From Escherichia phage vB-EcoP-XT73, in sequence record OR757436.1: a DNA stretch of 64,000 nucleotides; one strand, given 5' to 3'. The translations under genes were made by a program, and so were the position numbers. Positions 3,259-40,155 of the stretch are shown here, piece by piece. Under the pieces are notes generated by a model. The model saw only the letters and a program-made list of their open reading frames with translations, did no database searches and was not told the origin of the DNA. How positions within the stretch are numbered: position 1 is the first letter of the stretch; each line of letters starts with the position of its first letter.

Positions 3259-3591
3259 AAGTTATTGTTTTAAGTTAAGTTTTCTTTTGATTTTAATAGA
3301 GAATCAAAGTCCTAGGAGTCCTCAACCTAAATCAAGGATTTCCTCAATTCTCTATTTTTATCTCGCAGGTGTCTCCTGCCCTTCGGTACTTGCAAGGGTT
3401 ACGATGATTGCCCAATATACAAGCCTGCAATAGCTTTACTAGCTATACAATATATACATTACTAGTGTGTTATATCTACTACCAAAGATACTTATATTAT
3501 ATAGTACCCTTATCGGTATAAGCGTAATGTATACTATACATAACCGCTCAAAGAGAGCAACAATCTTTCAAATTAAATAAGGAAATTAATA

Positions 3592-17337: not shown

Positions 17338-18369
17338 TTATAGTCCAGCAAAAACCTTAGCTGCATTCATTACAGGAACTGATAGATTAACTACAGTGTC
17401 AGCTCCTAGGTCGTAATTTTGATCCCACTGAAATAGGTATCTTCCATAGCCAGTTCCTATGCTAGAGCCGCTCATTGTGTGAGATCTCATTTGCTGATAT
17501 CTCCATCCACTACCTTGGCCTTTTATTGCACCTATTCCAGAAGTAAGAGGTATCATAGGATACGACATTCCAGTGTTACCACCACCTGAACCTATAAAAG
17601 TATCTACAGTGAAAGGTGTTCTGTTAGTAGAGAAGACGCACTGAGTGGTGCCCGGAGAGTAGATATTCAAACCCCCGTTATGCTCAGGAACGCCAGCTCC
17701 GTTGCAGAATACGGCAATCCTCACAAAGACGGACCCTCCTTCATTAGTGTTTCCGTTGACATAAGGCCTATTCTGATAGACTCGAACAATCCTGTCATCA
17801 GATGTGTAAGATAAACCAACCCCTCCATCAGACCAATTAGCAAATACAACAGCATTGGTCATATTGAACCCACCAATATTTGGTATCTGAAGGGAGTTGT
17901 TTATGGTCCCCTGCCAAGCCCAAATACATTGACCAACAACCCCACTATCCGATATTGAGAAGTAGTCTGCTGTATTGGAAAAGGTAATTCCATAATTCCT
18001 ATCCGCTCTAGGCCATATTTGGTATACGTTGAACCCACAGTCGAACAGAGGGTTACTACCTGGGTTCTGATTCAGAGTGACTCTAAAAGAGGAGTTGTTT
18101 TCTACGTAGATATCATTCACACAATAAACATCAGGAACTAGGTTAGGAGGGACTTCCCATTGCCAGCATAAAGAACCAGTAGGAACAATAACTATCTGAC
18201 CACTGCCATCCCACCCACTAATAGGGAAAGACCTCCCTGCCCCGTTAAAGTTAAAACTTCCTCTTATACTATTCTTGAACTGAGGGAAAGTACTTCCACT
18301 GTCTATGAAAAGAGGGGCTGGTGTAGCTGGTCCCGGCCCTACCGGTTGTGTCCAAATTCCATATGCCAT
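17338..18369 (-). CDS. structural protein (possible receptor-binding/tail protein)
   Basis: Strong RBS; Gly/Asn/Ser-rich, position within the tail block. Confidence 0.45.
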   Translation of the reverse strand: MAYGIWTQPVGPGPATPAPLFIDSGSTFPQFKNSIRGSFNFNGAGRSFPISGWDGSGQIVIVPTGSLCWQWEVPPNLVPDVYCVNDIYVENNSSFRVTLNQNPGSNPLFDCGFNVYQIWPRADRNYGITFSNTADYFSISDSGVVGQCIWAWQGTINNSLQIPNIGGFNMTNAVVFANWSDGGVGLSYTSDDRIVRVYQNRPYVNGNTNEGGSVFVRIAVFCNGAGVPEHNGGLNIYSPGTTQCVFSTNRTPFTVDTFIGSGGGNTGMSYPMIPLTSGIGAIKGQGSGWRYQQMRSHTMSGSSIGTGYGRYLFQWDQNYDLGADTVVNLSVPVMNAAKVFAGL

Positions 18370-33357: not shown

Positions 33358-34899
33358 TTAGTAGCTCTGATTCCATCTGCTTACGTTTGCCTCATACAAA
33401 GAAGCGCTTCCGTAGCTAACATCATGCTTAGAGCGACCACGATGTGTAACAGAGCACGCTGAATAGCGCATTGCATCCATTAAGTCATCATGTTCTTTAA
33501 TAATCTTACCAACCTTACGGTGATATCTAGCTTTCTCTTCGAATAGCTTAGCGTTAGCGGCTGTGTTAAAGACTTTAAAGCGTCCACTCATCATTCTTTC
33601 TCGGATATCTGTGATTCCCGGTTCTACAAAGAAGTTCTTTTTACCATCCATTCCAATTTTGTTGTAGAAGGTCTCACTCTGTACGTTAACTCCTGCATTC
33701 TTATAGAATTGAGCAACAGATGAGCCACTACCTTTCTCAGTATTGTCCGCATCATGCGGTAGGATGACAGGAATCCACTGACCACGACCATTAATAGCTG
33801 GAGCATGATACACTGGAGTAAAGCCACCTTCTTTATATGAGTCGTAAACATAGATAGTATCCGTGTTTGCATCGTAAGCTGTCCAAACAGCAGCAGTTGG
33901 GTGATCAATACCAATATCAATTGCACAGACACGTTTCCACGTATCAGGAATTTCGAATGGTTCACATTTAATTGTGTCATCCGATACATCATATATCAAA
34001 CCACTTCCTAACAATGGCATACCTTTTGAACGCATCTCTAACTGCCACGCTGGAATACCTTCAGTCATATCTTTTATATCTTGGTCAGTGATGTGTCCAC
34101 CTAGGTCTGCATGAGCATCCCACCAAGAAGCATTCTGGAAATACAGAGAACCTGTGTTCTCATCTCCTTCACCTTTCATAAATTTATCTACCAGTTCAGT
34201 TAAACCGTTCTCTGGTGTAGCTGTAATTGTAACTAGACCTTTAGTTGTGAGTGTACGTGTGACGCACTGTGCGAATATAGCCATAGACTCGTATGGATCT
34301 TCTTCGTCTAACCAAATGTAGTCAACTGTTGCACCCATCAATGTGTGTTCACCCTGTTGGGTTGAACGGAATTCTAATGTACTTAAACCGTCAAACTCTC
34401 CTCTCTCATTTTGATGTTTGATTTGTACGATTTGAAGTTTGTTACCATCTCGTTCTATCGTATCAATGACGATAGCATCACGAGGAATGACACCTGTCCC
34501 TAATAAATTTGTATCCTTTCCGATAGGTGTACCAAACAATTCCTTTTGCAATACTTTCCTTGTGGAATCCCCTGTAATACCAACTGCCCATGCTAAGATA
34601 GGTCTTTTAAATTTATATCCTGTCCACCAAGTTGGGTAGCGACCTGTGACATGACAAGCAAACTCGTATGCCTCGCTATAAGATTTACCAACACGGTTCG
34701 CTGCACACAAGAATCTAAAGCGATGCTTCAATCCTGCTGCATAAAATTTCTTTTGGAAGTCATACGCCTTGAAAGACAAAATCTTATTATACTTCCTCCA
34801 TTGGTCACGCTCTTTCAACATATTCAATAGTGCTTTCTTTTCGTCTACACTAAGGTTGTTACCAGTTAGAGCTTCATAAATTTGTTTATCTAATGACAT
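33358..34899 (-). CDS. terminase large subunit
   Basis: Walker A-like AANRVGKS, Walker B-like IWLDEED, nuclease-domain acidic motifs (CAIDIGIDH, HDDLMDAMRY). Confidence 0.85.
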   Translation of the reverse strand: MSLDKQIYEALTGNNLSVDEKKALLNMLKERDQWRKYNKILSFKAYDFQKKFYAAGLKHRFRFLCAANRVGKSYSEAYEFACHVTGRYPTWWTGYKFKRPILAWAVGITGDSTRKVLQKELFGTPIGKDTNLLGTGVIPRDAIVIDTIERDGNKLQIVQIKHQNERGEFDGLSTLEFRSTQQGEHTLMGATVDYIWLDEEDPYESMAIFAQCVTRTLTTKGLVTITATPENGLTELVDKFMKGEGDENTGSLYFQNASWWDAHADLGGHITDQDIKDMTEGIPAWQLEMRSKGMPLLGSGLIYDVSDDTIKCEPFEIPDTWKRVCAIDIGIDHPTAAVWTAYDANTDTIYVYDSYKEGGFTPVYHAPAINGRGQWIPVILPHDADNTEKGSGSSVAQFYKNAGVNVQSETFYNKIGMDGKKNFFVEPGITDIRERMMSGRFKVFNTAANAKLFEEKARYHRKVGKIIKEHDDLMDAMRYSACSVTHRGRSKHDVSYGSASLYEANVSRWNQSY

Positions 34900-35060
34900 A
34901 CTTCCTCCAGTTTAAAAATAGAAAAGGGAAAGTCCCTTCGTCAAAGAACCTCCCCTCTCCACTACAAGGGTACACTGCAAAAGAACATCGTGGCAATAAA
35001 ACTATAACAACCCTCAGATTGCTAATCAGATGATCTTCGACAGCTCCCTGTTTCCTTTAA

Positions 35061-35534
35061 TTAACTCTCGTCCGCTTCCTCCCCCTTTTCAGCGTCCTCA
35101 GAGTTGTCTTCTTCTGGAGGCATAACGTCGATACCAAGTGCTCCAGTCAAGAAGTCCTTGATTTGTGCATTCAATGATTCTTCGTTAATTACATTCTCTT
35201 CCTCAATCTTAACTTCAACAGAGGCCGCCTTAGGATATACCAGATCTGCAACTTTTGATGCAGCCTTGAATCTAAGATCAGGTGGAATATTAGGATCTTC
35301 GTAAATTTGAATTAACACTTCATCAGGAGACAAATGACTTGCAGCAACACGGTCCAACATTAATTGTGTCAGTTTACCTCTACTACCTCTGGGTCGTCCG
35401 AATTTATTTCCCTTTTGAAACTTCCCATTGCTTGGGTTCATACCACGGCCTTCAAGTTCTTCCGTTACTCCGGGTAATCTTCCTGTAATCTCAGCTACCT
35501 GTGCAGGCGTGAGTTCTCCGTTTTCTCCAAACAT
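35061..35534 (-). CDS. putative terminase small subunit / DNA-binding protein
   Basis: Located upstream of the large terminase; basic GNKFGRPRGSRG segment and acidic C-terminus. Confidence 0.35.
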   Translation of the reverse strand: MFGENGELTPAQVAEITGRLPGVTEELEGRGMNPSNGKFQKGNKFGRPRGSRGKLTQLMLDRVAASHLSPDEVLIQIYEDPNIPPDLRFKAASKVADLVYPKAASVEVKIEEENVINEESLNAQIKDFLTGALGIDVMPPEEDNSEDAEKGEEADES

Positions 35535-35590
35535 TTTATACTCCTTCTACATTATCAACAACACAAAAAGCCTCCCAAGGGAGGCAAACA

Positions 35591-36223
35591 TTACTTACAA
35601 TCACCAACGGACAGGTTAAACATCTTACCTAAAGTAACTATCTCACCCTCCCACGGAAGTTCTACACCCTTCTCTTCCTCTAAAAGAATAGAGCCGTCGA
35701 CCAAAAATTTTTCGTAGTCTCGCAGTGCGTCGTCTACTAACTCACTCTTGTGAATCCACGTAATTGTTTCTGTACCATCTTCTTCGATTCGAACATCACG
35801 ATGCCATTCATCTTTAGAGGTAATGTAATCATGGAGCATTTCATATTCAGCTTCTTCAATCATCTCAATCATTGCACGAGCATAGTCAGGAAGGTGATCA
35901 TGTTTAGTAGATTCATATTCAACTACTTCCAGAGTAGATGGTTGTGTTTTAGTTTTAGAGTTAGGGCGAGTAGTATGAATCAAATCTAACATGTTTTTGT
36001 TCTCCGTAATATTTGGTTTAAGAATACTTCCACTATACAAATCTTGTACAGCCAGTCCTGAGATGTTTCCCATAGTTTCTAAATGTTGTAAGCTACAACC
36101 AGAGCGACATAGCTGTGAATTATACTCGTTAAGGTCCATCGCTTGGGTGTGGAAAGGAGAGCCAGAAGGGAAACTACCTCCATAAATACCTTCCATGTTA
36201 CGTGCGATTATTTGATTATTCAT
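35591..36223 (-). CDS. hypothetical protein
   Basis: Strong RBS (GGGAGAG); no recognisable motif. Confidence 0.45.
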   Translation of the reverse strand: MNNQIIARNMEGIYGGSFPSGSPFHTQAMDLNEYNSQLCRSGCSLQHLETMGNISGLAVQDLYSGSILKPNITENKNMLDLIHTTRPNSKTKTQPSTLEVVEYESTKHDHLPDYARAMIEMIEEAEYEMLHDYITSKDEWHRDVRIEEDGTETITWIHKSELVDDALRDYEKFLVDGSILLEEEKGVELPWEGEIVTLGKMFNLSVGDCK

Positions 36224-36470
36224 CTGTCTCTCCCTTGCTGTAATCTTTATACGTTTCTACTTTGTAAGTGCAGAATGCTCTAAAGAAGAGCCAACCTAAG
36301 CTACTCACATCAATGGTAATATCGAAATCTGTTTCATCATCTAGGTCAACAAGACGACCTAAGCATGTAGCTTCCATCCCATCTTCAGAGTCACTATTGA
36401 CTACGAAAGCGTATGTCTCCGTTCTGAACCGAGGCACTATCTCTGATAAAAAGTCTAATACTAAATTCAT
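36216..36470 (-). CDS. hypothetical acidic protein
   Basis: GAGGAG RBS; first clearly supported gene of the - strand block. Confidence 0.4.
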   Translation of the reverse strand: MNLVLDFLSEIVPRFRTETYAFVVNSDSEDGMEATCLGRLVDLDDETDFDITIDVSSLGWLFFRAFCTYKVETYKDYSKGETDE

Positions 36471-36495
36471 AACTCTTCTCCTCTGAATAAGAGTA

Positions 36496-36622
36496 TAAAG
36501 GGCTAGTCATATCTAACCCGTAAAGGCCACGTCATCAAAGATGACTACCTCATACTAACAACCCGTGTACTCTGAAGTAAAGGGCATGTCATAAAGGCAC
36601 CCTCATGTTAAGGCCATGTCAT
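36496..36622. repeat. iteron-like direct repeats TAAAGGC(C)AnGTCAT, 4-5 copies
   Basis: Copies at 36496, 36521, 36578, 36608 plus a variant at 36593, in the divergent intergenic region. Confidence 0.6.
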
Positions 36623-36701
36623 TAGTCATACTTGATACATCTTGCTATAGAGAAGCAGATGAATAAACAGAAGACTATTACTAACCAAAAGATTATTTCC
36701 A

Positions 36702-36863
36702 TTAAGACCTATCCACCCACGTACTGAATCTCAACTTACCACATTCCTTACACTTCCATGTTGATAGGTAGAGACCGTGTATTCTTTCATCCCCGTAAGC
36801 TTTACGAAGAAGGTAGTAATTGTGCTTACACTTCATCCGTCTAAATACTTTAATTAGATTCAT
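36702..36863 (-). CDS. hypothetical small zinc-ribbon protein (53 aa)
   Basis: AAGAGAG RBS before ATG 36863; C-x-H...C-x-x-C. Confidence 0.25.
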   Translation of the reverse strand: MNLIKVFRRMKCKHNYYLLRKAYGDERIHGLYLSTWKCKECGKLRFSTWVDRS

Positions 36864-37015
36864 TAAGTTCTCTCTTAAGCTTATATATAACAGTTCAAAA
36901 TTCTGATTTGACCGAGTGGGGCTAGGCCCTCTGCGGCGAATTGTTAAAAAGGGGGAGTCCTCAAATAAAAAATGGTTATTGGCAATGCCTTTACACCTTC
37001 TTCCACGTTCCAACC

Positions 37016-37457
37016 TTTCCCCGTGCCTACTCCCCGTAATTATTTCCCCGTGTATACCATCCTATTCATTACCTACCCGTTTATTTAGTACCCCTTTACT
37101 GAATGGATGAAAGGCTAGCACTGTATAGGCACATTCATAACCAGGATAATAATACCGTATTGTTACCGTTCAGCTCCCCATAGTTTGATTGTAAATAGTT
37201 TCAATAGTGATTGTTATGAGTGCAATAATGATGTATGTATTAATTAAGTGGATAATGGTTGATGTGTGTTATTGTTTCTTTTAATTACTTTCTTTTTCAG
37301 CGTGCATGAGCGTAGCGAATGGTCTTTGATGTTTGAGTTATACAATTATTTAAGTGGTATATTATTACCGCACTATCTGGCAATGTTCCCCCGTGGTCTG
37401 TCCTGCGGTTGTATGTTCCCCGTCCTATAGAGATAGTAGAAATATTTTACCCGTAGG
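37016..37457. promoter_or_regulatory. cluster of TTCCCCGT / ACCCGT motif copies in a non-coding control region
   Basis: At least 7 copies (37016, 37030, 37044, 37074, 37386, 37415, 37447). Confidence 0.4.
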
Positions 37458-37727
37458 ACTTGCTTTCTTTATTAAGAAGTAGTAAATTGTATTCATCGAA
37501 GCGAAGCAGTGATGCAAAGTAGCTAGATGGTAGTAAGCTCCATGAAGGATAATCGTCCTAAGTAGTGGAGAATGTTTAAAGATAAGGACTCTGCGATTGA
37601 CTGGTGAAAGCTGGAACACTATCGAGTCAGTGAAGAGGCCAACTGAGCAATGGCCCTACGTATAAAAGAGAAATACGTGCTATCTTGTGAAACATGAAAC
37701 CAAATACACATCAATGAGGATTCACAA

Positions 37728-38219
37728 ATGGCTAAAGTAATGCAGGTAGTTAATCTGGCAAGCTATGTACTGGTTGCCGCGATCGGTGTTAGTGCACTGG
37801 TAACATCTCTTTCTGATAAGGCTATCGCTAGTCCAGCTCCTGCAACTAATGCCGCTGATGTTTTCGCTAGTTCCATTAATAAAGGTTGGATGATTTGCAA
37901 CGGTGCGGATAGTGACGGCAATACCATCGCGTTAAAGATGAAATTTAGTAACGTAACAAATGAAGGCGTTCTCTTTCAATCTAAGACGTTGGATGGTCAG
38001 CCTAACAGTGATCTGGTACTCAAGCGTGCTGATAATGATGCGGATATGGTGACGTATGGCACTGTACAACGTTACGAAGACGTTAAAGCTGTAACCAACC
38101 TAGTGAGTTATGGTCCGGTCAATGAGTCGATGATTGCTACCACTGTTTACAATAACGCTGATAACGCTGTTTATACTATTCACGTTAATCTGTCAAATTG
38201 TATTAAAGCTAGCAAATGA
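37728..38219 (+). CDS. hypothetical exported or membrane-anchored protein
   Basis: N-terminal hydrophobic signal-like segment; RBS. Confidence 0.5.
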   Translation: MAKVMQVVNLASYVLVAAIGVSALVTSLSDKAIASPAPATNAADVFASSINKGWMICNGADSDGNTIALKMKFSNVTNEGVLFQSKTLDGQPNSDLVLKRADNDADMVTYGTVQRYEDVKAVTNLVSYGPVNESMIATTVYNNADNAVYTIHVNLSNCIKASK

Positions 38220-38323: not shown

Positions 38324-38575
38324 ATGGCTATCAAAGAAGTTAAATTGTCTAACGGTTTTTCCTGTTTCGTCGGTCGTTCTGAAATCATGTTTAATACACT
38401 TGATGGTCAGATAACTTTTCCTATCGTCACTTTTTGCAAGATGGAATATCAGCCTCTTAAGGACTGGTTAGCCTTTGCTAATTTCGAAATTAACCGCGAT
38501 GACTTCCGCTCAATCTATATTGACGGTGATTTGACTCTGGCTAACCTGCTTAGTGAAGGATTAATACATGGCTAA
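38324..38575 (+). CDS. hypothetical protein
   Basis: RBS; ATGA-type overlap with the next gene. Confidence 0.4.
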   Translation: MAIKEVKLSNGFSCFVGRSEIMFNTLDGQITFPIVTFCKMEYQPLKDWLAFANFEINRDDFRSIYIDGDLTLANLLSEGLIHG

Positions 38576-39021: not shown

Positions 39022-39387
39022 ATGTGGTTTATTAAATTCGTCGTTAAAACGGTTGTAGGCTTTTTTCTGGTTGTTCTTCTGTTGGGTGTCCTGCTATCAG
39101 CTATGGGTAGCGTTAAGGCTGCAACATTTTCCCCTGCTACGGTTGACGGCTTGCAATGTACCTACCTTGTAGAAAACTATTCGACTGGTAAAAAGTCACC
39201 TAAGGTTATTATTTTACATGTAAATGATTTCGAGCATGTACAATCATACGCTAAGACTATTCAGCTAGTGAATGAAACCACTGGCAAACAAATCACGGTC
39301 GATCACTTGATGCGCTCGTCGTTGACGCTCTTTGACGAGTCTATGAATGAAGTAGAATCCGGTAACGGTCAGTGTGTAAATCCTTAA
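39022..39387 (+). CDS. hypothetical secreted protein
   Basis: Signal peptide (MWFIKFVVKTVVGFFLVVLLLGVLLSAMGSVKA). Confidence 0.5.
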   Translation: MWFIKFVVKTVVGFFLVVLLLGVLLSAMGSVKAATFSPATVDGLQCTYLVENYSTGKKSPKVIILHVNDFEHVQSYAKTIQLVNETTGKQITVDHLMRSSLTLFDESMNEVESGNGQCVNP

Positions 39388-39466: not shown

Positions 39467-39790
39467 ATGAAGAAGTTAATCGTTGGCTTGGCTGTTGGTT
39501 TGTCTTTGTTTGCTGGTAGTGCTAGCGCATACATGAAATGCGGAAGCATTGGAGTGGTCACAGCCTCTAATGGTGCTAAAAATCTCACCGCTTTAGGTAA
39601 GACTTGGTCCGCTACTGAGGTTATCACTTTAGAAAATGGCTTAAAGGCTGTAATCTATGATAACCGGAAAGATGGTTCAATTCTTCGGGTTGTTCCTACG
39701 GAAGATGGGAAAACGGTTGCCATTATCTATTATCGAGATGCGGAATCTAATCTTAATGGTAATCCTGTGCTTTCCGGTATGTGCCGATAG
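39467..39790 (+). CDS. hypothetical secreted (periplasmic) protein
   Basis: Sec-type signal peptide MKKLIVGLAVGLSLFAGSASA. Confidence 0.5.
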   Translation: MKKLIVGLAVGLSLFAGSASAYMKCGSIGVVTASNGAKNLTALGKTWSATEVITLENGLKAVIYDNRKDGSILRVVPTEDGKTVAIIYYRDAESNLNGNPVLSGMCR

Positions 39791-39818
39791 TCTATCTGAT
39801 GCTCTAAATCCTTCCTAT

Positions 39819-39840
39819 AAGCCTCCTAGTGAGGCTTTTC
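39819..39840 (+). terminator. putative terminator
   Basis: AAGCCTC-CTAGT-GAGGCTT then TTTCTCATTT. Confidence 0.35.
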
Positions 39841-40127
39841 TCATTTCTAAGGTGATTGTATTCCTTACCCTCCTTTAGCTCATTGTGATGCGTCTGAGAG
39901 CGTCAAATAGTGCTTTACAAGCCTGTTTTAGTATGTTATTCGCGTGCGCGTTCCTTTACCTACTCCTCTACGAAAAAGTTTAAAATAATTTGCTTTGCCC
40001 TATTGCATTACTCACTGGTTGGCGTATACTTCAATTCATCGGGTACGATGAAAAACATACAAGGCAAGAAATTGCCCCGCTCTTTAAAAATCAGGCTAGA
40101 AAGTGAAAAAATACTTGAAAAAAGTAT

Positions 40128-40155
40128 TTGACAACTGGAAAGCCTAACCTATAAT
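40128..40155 (+). promoter_or_regulatory. near-consensus sigma-70-type promoter
   Basis: TTGACA, 16-bp spacer, TATAAT, with A/T-rich upstream flank. Confidence 0.4.

What the first reader, a model, noticed from the sequence alone, without database searches (positions are those of the whole stretch)
36496..37457. Iteron-like repeats and a CCCCGT motif cluster in the divergent control region between the structural and early blocks
Four to five direct copies of TAAAGGC(C)AnGTCAT lie within 130 bp, followed by at least seven copies of TTCCCCGT-like motifs over 440 bp, where the - strand morphogenesis block and the + strand block diverge. This resembles iterons of a replication origin or an array of operator or late-promoter elements, and could be where the phage sigma factor or a late activator acts.
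Basis: seen in the sequence. Interest (0 to 1): 0.5.

Follow-up and report, generated by a model that had tools for sequence, protein, structure and literature searches.

The report
Repeat arrays at a phage genome end-junction
The repeats are real and conserved, but they lie at the joined physical ends (193-bp terminal repeat) of a phiEco32-like coliphage genome, arranged like phage T7's terminal short-repeat arrays; they most likely guide cutting and packaging of the DNA and are not the phage sigma factor's promoters.

Summary
Five 15-bp units (TWAAGGS-N4-YCAY) lie at 36496-36622. CCCGT occurs ten times on the + strand and never on the - strand in 36471-37727 (0.35 expected).

The window is a Kuravirus (phiEco32-like podophage), 97% identical to vB-EcoP-XT18. 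The "divergent control region" is the concatemer junction. Window 36924-37116 maps base for base onto the determined 193-bp direct terminal repeats (DTRs) of phiEco32, YF01 and Paul. Both boundaries read GGCT|AG.

Four CCCGT copies sit in the DTR, three lie 270-330 bp beyond it towards the early genes, and two sit beside the 15-bp array on the terminase-gene arm. All 20 relatives examined keep both motif families. One lineage has switched to yTACCCRT in the DTR array and the early-arm array together.

T7 has the same layout: CCTAAAG in one orientation only, 3 copies in its DTR and 8 + 2 in the flanks.

The known gp36 sigma promoter consensus (tAATGTAtA) is unrelated to both motifs. No strong sigma-70 promoter lies in the region.

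Best reading: recognition elements for concatemer processing and packaging. This is inferred, at about 0.5 confidence. An end-proximal origin or early-region control is not excluded. It is a new member of a known kind, of modest interest.

The parts
36496..36622 (+). Array of five 15-bp direct units, TWAAGGS-N4-YCAY, at 36496-36510, 36521-35, 36578-92, 36592-606 and 36608-22. The last three are head-to-tail with a 14-16 bp period. The array lies between the gene-1 and gene-4 homologues on the terminase-gene arm, 300-430 bp from the DTR boundary.
   Evidence: The units are unique to this site in the window and in two complete relative genomes. All 20 relatives have 5-7 copies.
36517..36566 (+). 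Two CCCGT copies on the terminase-gene arm (36517-21 and 36562-66). The first abuts a 15-bp unit (ACCCGTAAAGG).
   Evidence: They occur at the homologous place in 14 of the 15 close relatives; SDYTW1 has none there.
36702..36863 (-). Small gene (53 aa), homologue of phi32_1, with a CxH...CxxC zinc-ribbon-like pattern. It contains one in-frame CCCCGT at 36791.
   Evidence: phiEco32 gene 1; phrog_7696 at E = 3e-16; a weak zinc-finger PHROG hit.
36884..36912 (-). Conserved sigma-70-like promoter candidate for gene 1 (GTCAAA-17-TATATA), immediately outside the DTR.
   Evidence: near-invariant block. SU10 Table S2 calls the homologous stretch a 'potential sigma-70 promoter'. Prediction only.
36923..36924 (.). 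Inferred terminase cut that creates the early-gene (phiEco32 'right') genome end: GGGGCT|AGGC.
   Evidence: Homology to the phiEco32, YF01 and Paul DTR boundaries. CT|AG is kept in divergent lineages.
36924..37116 (.). Single collapsed copy of the 193-bp direct terminal repeat.
   Evidence: It maps end to end on the annotated or determined DTRs. Six linear records start at window position 37116 and ES17 one base away. The window holds only one copy.
36944..36963 (.). Most conserved core of the DTR, TTAAAAAGGGGGAGTCCTCA. It is retained even where the rest of the DTR cannot be aligned.
   Evidence: (distant relatives match only window 36881-36988). PMC9965538 notes a conserved stretch at DTR positions ~130-170.
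37020..37080 (+). Four CCCGT copies inside the DTR (37020, 37033, 37047, 37076), spaced 13, 14 and 29 bp.
37116..37117 (.). Inferred terminase cut that creates the terminase-gene (phiEco32 'left') genome end: AAAGGCT|AGCA.
37117..37175 (.). Hypervariable spacer immediately outside the DTR.
   Evidence: alignment.
37176..37380 (.). Conserved AT-rich block (25% GC at 37200-37299). It holds two copies of TTAAGTGG (37239-51 and 37345-57) that change together in other lineages, to TWGACTGG or TWGATTGG.
   Evidence: (D10).
37390..37454 (+). Three CCCGT copies on the early-gene arm (37390, 37419, 37450), spaced 29 and 31 bp. Homology among relatives ends just beyond them.
37460..37488 (+). Weak sigma-70-like candidate (TTGCTT-17-TAAATT) ahead of the first early gene (37728-38219).
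   Evidence: Read from the sequence and conserved in relatives with the same early-gene variant. It falls below the thresholds of both scans.
35546..35554 (-). Nearest gp36-type late promoter element (TAATGTAGA), upstream of the gene-6 homologue. It is outside the finding and is listed as a contrast.
   Evidence: The identical element is listed as a late promoter in SU10 Table S2.

Best explanation
The region is the concatemer junction of a Kuravirus (phiEco32-like) phage. Its layout, left to right on the + strand, is:
- the terminase-gene arm;
- a cut site;
- the 193-bp direct terminal repeat (DTR, 36924-37116);
- a second cut site;
- the early-gene arm.

The two repeat families are double-stranded DNA recognition elements of a T7-type junction.

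(a) The invariant 15-bp TWAAGGS-N4-YCAY array lies just inside the genome end that carries the terminase genes. I propose that it acts as a cosB/pac-like anchoring site for the packaging complex (putative small terminase gp6 plus TerL).

(b) The single-orientation CCCGT array is spread over the DTR and both flanks at multiples of about 14-15 bp. I propose that it is read by a lineage-specific factor, or directionally by the packaging or replication machinery, to position the two blunt CT|AG cuts and allow duplication of the DTR.

Shown: the location, the boundaries by homology, the motif statistics, the conservation, the concerted motif change and the T7-like layout. Inferred: that proteins bind these elements, which proteins they are, and the role in packaging.
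For: Identity of the phage and the junction:
- The region is 97% identical to Kuravirus XT18.
- Kuraviruses carry ~193-bp DTRs, determined experimentally for phiEco32 and YF01 and by PhageTerm for Paul (PMC9965538).
- Window 36924-37116 aligns end to end with those DTRs.
- Six linear records begin at window position 37116 and ES17 one base away.
- Both boundaries share GGCT|AG, and CT|AG persists in divergent lineages. SU10 reads indicate blunt ends (PMC4281155).

The arrays:
- CCCGT occurs 10 times on + and 0 on -, against 0.35 expected.
- The positions are conserved in 15 relatives.
- The motif core columns are more conserved than random pentamer sets (68 of 5000 random sets reach the same mean).
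- Bas89 keeps two CCCCGT-type arrays of four copies each (7 CCCCGT, 1 ACCCGT), although most of its DTR cannot be aligned.
- The TH43/TH42/Bas86/MLP3 lineage has yTACCCRT in both the DTR array and the early-arm array. This is a concerted change, as expected for sites read by one co-evolving factor.
- The 15-bp units are unique to this site genome-wide and are present in all relatives.
- Their invariance parallels the 92-94% conservation of gp6, TerL and portal. The neighbouring gp4 and gp5 are only 48-60% conserved.

Comparison and exclusions:
- T7 has the same architecture. CCTAAAG occurs in one orientation only, with 3 copies in the DTR, 8 inside one arm at multiples of 13 bp, and 2 before the other DTR copy.
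- T3/T7 packaging specificity maps to the genome termini (PMC3276506).
- There is no Rfam match and no significant RNA or DNA folding, so the elements probably act as duplex DNA.
Against: - No binding or packaging data exist for these motifs, and the function of the analogous T7 arrays has itself never been established (my knowledge).
- gp6 is called a small terminase only by position (YF01 annotation) and by a sub-threshold DUF5681 hit.
- gp6 and TerL do not change between the CCCCGT and TACCCRT lineages, so they are poor candidates for reading the CCCGT motif.
- The 15-bp array lies 300-430 bp from the cut, further than lambda cosB lies from cosN.
- The region also has origin-like features: an AT-rich trough and a GC-skew minimum.
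- The physical ends of this particular phage were not measured.
Confidence: 0.5

Rival explanations
1. End-proximal replication origin. The direct repeats are iterons, or auxiliary sites, that flank an AT-rich unwinding element at 37200-37300 and are bound by a phage initiator. This would be analogous to the secondary origins next to T7's terminal arrays (phiOL and phiOR).
For: The CCCGT arrays bracket a conserved AT-rich block with 25% GC, and the local cumulative GC-skew minimum lies at about 37100. The repeats are direct and in one orientation. T7 carries the promoters phiOL (405) and phiOR (39229) next to its terminal arrays. Their association with origins is from my own knowledge.
Against: - None of the adjacent proteins (gp1, gp4, gp5, gp6) matches a Rep- or initiator-like family in Pfam, PHROGs or NCBIfam.
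- The units are 5-15 bp long and spaced 13-16 bp apart. They are not the 17-22 bp iterons in helical phase that are typical of origins.
- The GC-skew switch coincides with the switch in gene orientation, so it is not diagnostic.
- Part of the array lies inside a terminal repeat that is duplicated at both ends.
Confidence: 0.2
2. Early-transcription or DNA-entry control. The CCCGT copies and the paired TTAAGTGG elements on the first-entering (early-gene) end are binding sites for a host or phage regulator, or for RNA polymerase. They would govern early promoters or transcription-assisted genome internalisation. The 15-bp array would regulate the gene1-gp4-gp5 transcript.
For: - The early-arm CCCGT cluster lies just upstream of the candidate first early promoter: 37460-88 here, and TTGACA-16-TATAGT in phiEco32 and SU10.
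- Conserved elements resembling extended -10 motifs occur in the AT-rich block.
- A promoter candidate for gene 1 abuts the DTR.
- A near-consensus gp36 element (TAATGAATA, TAATGTATT or AAATGTATA) persists inside the DTR on the late-gene strand.
Against: - No promoter scoring 10 of 12 or better lies in 36400-37727. The consensus early promoters lie 3 kb away, at 40128 and 40581.
- The distance from the CCCGT cluster to the first early promoter varies between relatives, from about 10 to about 110 bp.
- The same motif recurs inside the DTR and on the opposite arm, far from any early promoter.
- The sites are asymmetric direct repeats and not dyad operators.
- The motifs are unrelated to the gp36 consensus.
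Confidence: 0.2
3. The repeats have no present function. They are relics of slippage or duplication, or by-products of base composition at a recombination-prone genome end.
For: The spacer next to the DTR is hypervariable, and the junction shows indels and mosaicism. Copy number of the 15-bp unit varies between 5 and 7.
Against: - Motif cores are kept while the flanks diverge.
- Strand asymmetry is strict, 10 to 0.
- The motif changed in concert in two arrays separated by about 300 bp.
- The arrays are unique within whole genomes.
Confidence: 0.07

Closest known systems
Bacteriophage T7 (and T3) concatemer junction: 160-bp terminal repeat with flanking short-repeat arrays (CCTAAAG)
   Same: Both have a short DTR in a lytic podophage with blunt or near-blunt ends. 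In both, a 5-7 bp motif occurs in one orientation only, inside the DTR and in both flanks, at multiples of about 13-15 bp. In both, early promoters lie beyond the larger flank array and the terminase genes are on the opposite arm (compared).
   Different: The motif sequence differs. The phage family differs (Gordonclarkvirinae against Autographiviridae). Kuraviruses have no phage RNA polymerase, so T7's link between transcription and packaging cannot apply as such. Here there is a second, distinct 15-bp array, and a small gene lies between the DTR and that array. The function of the T7 arrays is itself unproven (my knowledge).
Phage lambda cosB (R3-R2-R1 sites bound by small terminase gpNu1)
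   Same: Both are a set of repeated ~15-16 bp elements located just inside the genome end that carries the terminase genes, between the cut site and the terminase genes.
   Different: Lambda makes a staggered nick at a single cos site, with no terminal repeat. The R sites lie within about 170 bp of cosN and one of them is inverted. Binding has been demonstrated for lambda and not here (my knowledge).
Phage P1 pac site (hexamer repeats flanking the cut) and SPP1 pacL/pacR boxes
   Same: Short repeated motifs lie on both sides of the terminase cleavage position.
   Different: Those phages package by the headful mechanism, with a single initiating cut and methylation control in P1. Here the ends are exact, with two cuts 193 bp apart (my knowledge).
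Iterons of theta-type origins (lambda ori, P1 oriR, plasmid Rep systems)
   Same: Both have direct repeats next to an AT-rich stretch.
   Different: No initiator gene was found here. The units are shorter and their spacing is off the helical phase. Part of the array lies in the terminal repeat.

Membership tests
Kuravirus direct terminal repeat / T7-type concatemer junction | Sequence homologous to determined DTRs, with the same two boundaries | tested here: met
   Window 36924-37116 aligns to positions 1-193 of the phiEco32, YF01 and Paul DTRs. Six linear records start at 37116 and ES17 one base away.
Kuravirus direct terminal repeat / T7-type concatemer junction | The repeat is physically present at both ends of this phage's virion DNA | not testable with these tools
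   No reads or restriction data are available for this isolate. The window holds one collapsed copy.
Kuravirus direct terminal repeat / T7-type concatemer junction | A single-orientation short-repeat array inside and flanking the DTR, as in T7 | tested here: met
   CCCGT occurs 10 times on + and 0 on -, with 4 copies in the DTR, 3 on the early arm and 2-3 on the terminase arm. The T7 layout was verified.
Kuravirus direct terminal repeat / T7-type concatemer junction | The arrays are required for concatemer cutting or packaging | not testable with these tools
   This needs genetics or biochemistry.
cosB/pac-type small-terminase binding array | Repeated elements between the genome end and the terminase genes | tested here: met
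   The 15-bp array at 36496-36622 lies between the cut at 36923|4 and gp6/TerL at 33358-35534.
cosB/pac-type small-terminase binding array | An identified small terminase that binds the elements | tested here: inconclusive
   gp6 is 'putative TerS' by position only. Its DUF5681 hit has E = 0.06, below the cut-off, and it has no sequence match in the PDB. Binding cannot be tested here.
Iteron-type replication origin | An adjacent gene for a Rep- or initiator-family protein | tested here: not met
   gp1, gp4, gp5 and gp6 have no initiator family match in Pfam, PHROGs or NCBIfam.
Iteron-type replication origin | Three or more direct repeats beside an AT-rich unwinding element | tested here: inconclusive
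   The AT-rich trough at 37200-37300 is bracketed by CCCGT copies. The core motif is only 5-8 bp long, and the 15-bp array is 580 bp away.
Iteron-type replication origin | Replication initiates at the site | not testable with these tools
   This needs marker-frequency analysis or 2D gels.
gp36 (phage sigma) middle/late promoters | The single element tAATGTAtA, 6-8 bp upstream of the transcription start | tested here: not met
   Neither repeat family resembles this element. Matches with at most one mismatch lie at 3453, 3525, 12798, 27859 and 35546. The only one in the region is TAATGAATA at 37063-71 (-), which is not part of either array.
Sigma-70 promoter/operator cluster | -35/-10 hexamers close to consensus, with dyad-symmetric operator sites | tested here: not met
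   The scan found 3 weak sites against 6.0 expected. None scores 10 of 12 or better in 36400-37727. The repeats are direct and not dyads.

The most novel reading that the evidence does not exclude
The CCCGT/TACCCRT arrays are read by a small lineage-specific phage protein. Candidates are the zinc-ribbon gp1 encoded inside the junction module, and a virion or early protein that co-varies with the motif. Under this reading, the factor and its sites together form a packaging or end-processing specificity module that has switched between Kuravirus lineages. This would give a tractable system for answering what T7-type terminal short-repeat arrays do, a question that has been open since the T7 sequence was published.
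Probability: 0.2. Interest if true: 0.55.

Novelty: new member of a known kind. Interest (0 to 1): 0.3.

Why it matters
Practical points:
- The analysis gives the correct start and end of this genome and of the many circularly permuted Kuravirus records.
- It marks the 1.25-kb "intergenic control region" as the end junction.
- It flags cis-elements that must be kept intact when engineering or rebooting these therapeutic-candidate coliphages.

Conceptual point: T7-style single-orientation repeat arrays at short terminal repeats recur in an unrelated podophage group. Natural motif-switch variants exist there, and they could be used to test what such arrays do.

Tried and rejected
- My initial guess was an N4/G7C-like phage with hairpin promoters. 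The taxonomy of the best hits is Kuravirus, so I dropped it.
- An IMG/VR search with the gp4 homologue returned only phiEco32 and NJ01 themselves. I took relatives from the phage collection instead.
- Rfam found nothing in the region at gathering threshold or at E <= 1.
- Single-strand folding of the 15-bp array transcript and of the DTR is not better than shuffles (z = -1.06 and +1.12). I therefore rejected structured-RNA and hairpin explanations.
- The terminator-like hairpin at 36500-36519 is not conserved in phiEco32 and was rejected.
- Sequence searches of gp5 and gp6 against the PDB, and of the neighbouring proteins against NCBIfam and Pfam, gave nothing usable.
- The genome-wide protein co-variation screen (window against Bas89 and MLP3) is inconclusive. 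Candidates that track the motif switch are confounded by linkage and mosaic blocks. In addition, phiEco32 gp1 is only about 63% identical to the window's gp1 (aligned by hand) although both phages have the same motif type.
- Savalia 2008 and Pavlova 2012, the primary phiEco32 papers, are not held. I took promoter information from PMC8948821 and from SU10 Table S2.
- A full-text search for CCTAAAG returned only noise. I verified the T7 arrays directly from the T7 sequence instead.

Full report
**1. What the sequence is**

The 1.6 kb around the finding is 97% identical to Escherichia phage vB-EcoP-XT18 and 80-93% identical to many other coliphages classified as Gordonclarkvirinae, genus Kuravirus, the phiEco32-like C3-morphotype podophages.

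The window is in the opposite orientation to the phiEco32 record:
- The - strand genes to the left are the homologues of phi32_4, phi32_5 (labelled 'ABC transporter' by a PHROG), phi32_6, the large terminase and the portal.
- The + strand genes to the right are early genes.

**2.

Five + strand copies of a 15-bp unit lie at 36496, 36521, 36578, 36592 and 36608. The last three are head-to-tail.

Written as T[AT]AAGG[GC]N4[TC]CA[TC], the unit matches nowhere else in the 64-kb window. In the complete genomes of two relatives it matches almost only in the homologous array (Bas89 4 of 5, MLP3 6 of 6), always on one strand.

The core CCCGT occurs 10 times on the + strand and 0 times on the - strand in the 1257-bp gene-poor stretch 36471-37727 (one small gene). 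The expectation is 0.35, giving P of about 6e-12. An unbiased k-mer screen ranks CCCGT, CCCCGT and TCCCCGT first.

**3. The region is the junction of the physical genome ends**

Kuraviruses have linear genomes with direct terminal repeats of about 193 bp. These were determined by restriction mapping and primer walking for phiEco32, by whole-genome nanopore reads for YF01 and by PhageTerm for Paul (PMC9965538). SU10 reads drop off sharply at the ends, which indicates blunt ends (PMC4281155).

- Window 36924-37116 aligns from its first to its last base with those DTRs.
- Six linear records (IMEP8, WFI101126, Paul, CHD5UKE1, YF01, SU10) begin at window position 37116; ES17 begins one base away, and LAMP's left-end match also reaches it.
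- The window holds a single copy, so the assembly is permuted with the repeat collapsed.
- Both boundaries read GGCT|AG (36923|36924 and 37116|37117).
- In relatives the invariant part is CT|AG, including in lineages whose DTR is otherwise hard to align.

The 'divergent control region' is therefore two opposite genome ends that are joined only in concatemers and in the assembly.

**4. Anatomy, left to right on the + strand**

- gp4 start codon at 36470.
- The 15-bp array with two CCCGT copies (36496-36622).
- A 53-aa zinc-ribbon-like gene, the phi32_1 homologue (36702-36863, - strand).
- A conserved promoter-like block, which SU10 Table S2 lists as a potential sigma-70 promoter.
- A cut site.
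- The DTR. It holds an almost invariant core, TTAAAAAGGGGGAGTCCTCA (36944-63), and four CCCGT copies (37020-37080).
- A second cut site.
- A hypervariable spacer (37117-75).
- A conserved AT-rich block (37176-37380; 25% GC) with two TTAAGTGG elements.
- Three CCCGT copies (37390-37454).
- The point where homology among relatives ends and the variable early region begins.

Spacings within the CCCGT arrays are 13, 14, 29, 29 and 31 bp. These are multiples of about 14-15 bp, the same period as the 15-bp array.

**5. Conservation**

All 15 close relatives keep the seven non-coding CCCGT copies of the DTR and early arm, apart from one early-arm copy in Bas92 and Bas94, and none has a copy on the other strand. 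The 35 core columns average 94.7% identity to the window, against 81.0% for the other 502 junction columns. Only 68 of 5000 random sets of seven pentamers do as well.

The divergent relatives are more telling:
- Bas89 can hardly be aligned to the window's DTR, yet it has four CCCCGT-type copies in the DTR and four on the early arm.
- TH43, TH42, Bas86 and MLP3 instead have yTACCC(G/A)T, about four copies in the DTR and three to four on the early arm. In MLP3 there are 9 in 1.3 kb, against 0.36 on average.

The motif has thus changed in concert in two arrays separated by a hypervariable spacer. This is what is expected if one trans-acting reader co-evolves with its sites. The paired TTAAGTGG elements behave in the same way, becoming TWGACTGG or TWGATTGG.

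The 15-bp unit is present in 5-7 copies in all 20 relatives, with an unchanged consensus.

**6. What it is not**

- gp36 promoters. The phage sigma factor gp36 uses the single element tAATGTAtA (PMC8948821). In the window this lies at 3453, 3525, 12798 and 27859, and as TAATGTAGA at 35546, upstream of the gene-6 homologue (SU10 Table S2). Neither repeat family resembles it.
- Sigma-70 promoters. The region has fewer sigma-70-like hits than shuffles (3 against 6.0), and none scores 10 of 12 or better. Consensus early promoters lie at 40128-40155 and 40581-40609.
- Structured RNA or hairpins. There is no Rfam match and no significant RNA or DNA folding.

**7. Comparison with T7, checked on the T7 sequence**

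CCTAAAG occurs 11 times on one strand and never on the other in the first 340 bp of T7. Three copies are in the 160-bp DTR. Eight are just inside the arm that leads to the early promoters, spaced at multiples of 13 bp. Two more precede the other DTR copy.

The distribution matches that of CCCGT here: the DTR plus both flanks, one orientation, a period of about 13-15 bp, with the larger flank array (T7) or a three-copy flank array (here) between the DTR and the early promoters. T3/T7 packaging specificity maps to the genome termini (PMC3276506). The exact role of the T7 arrays has not been established (my knowledge).

**8. Who might read the arrays**

I compared all window ORFs with Bas89 (CCCCGT type) and MLP3 (TACCCRT type).

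- Putative small terminase gp6 is 92% identical in both. TerL is 92% and 94%, and portal is 93% in both. These proteins do not track the CCCGT switch. Their constancy does parallel the invariant 15-bp array, the CT|AG cuts and the DTR core.
- gp4 and gp5, next to the array, are only 48-60% identical.
- Several proteins are close to Bas89 but far from MLP3: gp1 (91% and 52%), a 343-aa virion-block protein at 17338-18369 (91% and 63%), and three small early proteins at 42542-43187.

This is a lead only. Linkage and mosaicism confound it, and phiEco32 gp1 is only about 63% identical to the window's gp1 despite sharing the motif type.

**9. Mechanism proposed**

What is shown: the junction identity, the motif statistics, the conservation, the concerted change and the T7-like layout.

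What is inferred:
- The 15-bp array lies just inside the end that carries the terminase genes. That end is probably packaged first, because the early-gene end should enter the cell first and so be packaged last. The array would then serve as a cosB/pac-like anchoring site for the packaging complex.
- The oriented CCCGT array, spanning the DTR and both flanks, would position the two blunt cuts 193 bp apart and assist duplication of the repeat, or be read by a lineage-specific accessory factor.

Confidence in a packaging or maturation role is about 0.5. Rivals are an end-proximal origin (0.2), early-transcription or DNA-entry control (0.2) and no function (<0.1).

**10. Novelty**

The Kuravirus DTR is published, and SU10's authors noted one internal T-run repeat. 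I found no description of the CCCGT or 15-bp arrays in the papers I could read, but I could not access the two primary phiEco32 papers.

The feature is best filed as a new member of a known kind: T7-type terminal short-repeat arrays in another podophage group. It is of modest interest. It is useful for annotation and engineering, and the natural motif-switch variants offer an experimental handle.

Noticed in passing
window 39790-41531: A 1.7-kb ORF-poor early region holds a perfect consensus sigma-70 promoter (TTGACA-16-TATAAT, 40128-40155) and a second promoter at 40581-40609. It also holds four + strand copies of CGCTCTTTAA (40078, 40188, 40465, 40700), three preceded by CC (CCGCTCTTTAA). 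Rfam finds no match. This may be strongly transcribed non-coding RNA or processing sites. It corresponds to the 'three promoters between CDS120 and 121' of SU10.
   Followed up: partly
window 37063-37071 (- strand), inside the DTR: This element is one mismatch from the gp36 promoter consensus in every close relative, but the mismatch sits at different positions: TAATGAATA here and in phiEco32, TAATGTATT in XT18, SGF2, Paul and TH38, and AAATGTATA in Bas92 and Bas94. It points towards gene 1, gp4 and gp5. It could be a weak or lineage-variable gp36 promoter inside the terminal repeat.
   Followed up: partly
window 37239-37251 and 37345-37357: Two TTAAGTGG elements about 105 bp apart in the conserved AT-rich block change together in other lineages: TWGACTGG in TH43 and MLP3, and TWGATTGG in Bas89. 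This is a second pair of co-evolving sites, or a pair of promoter-like elements.
   Followed up: partly
window 36702-36863 (- strand): A 53-aa zinc-ribbon-like gene (phi32_1 homologue, phrog_7696) sits between the DTR and the 15-bp array. It is unannotated in many relatives' records. In XT18 the annotated CDS is extended to 139 aa and runs into the DTR.
   Followed up: partly
window 17338-18369 (- strand) and 42542-43187 (+ strand): A 343-aa protein in the virion/ejection gene block and three small early proteins are 89-92% identical to Bas89 but only 43-63% identical to MLP3, while their neighbours diverge equally from both. These mosaic blocks happen to track the terminal-motif type.
   Followed up: no
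window 37117-37175: The 60 bp immediately outside the DTR boundary are hypervariable among otherwise 85-95% identical relatives, with indels. This contrasts with the conserved blocks on either side.
   Followed up: no
L018 (TH43) 1544-1792; L017 (MLP3) 1551-1799; SU7 record positions 1-249: By homology of the two CT|AG boundaries, the SU7/TH43/MLP3 lineage should have a DTR of about 249 bp. The published 53-bp estimate for SU7 was already flagged as doubtful.
   Followed up: partly
window 35591-36223, 38324-38575, 39022-39387: The product names carried by relatives' records are PHROG-propagated labels: 'ABC transporter' (210 aa), 'polymerase' (83 aa) and 'terminase' (a 121-aa early protein). 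None has Pfam or NCBIfam support, and they are probably misannotations.
   Followed up: partly
whole window: Outside the junction, CCCGT is still about three times more frequent on the + strand (25 against 9). Bas89 and MLP3 show the mirror-image bias in their own record orientation. I did not determine the cause, which could be codon or strand composition or something functional.
   Followed up: no
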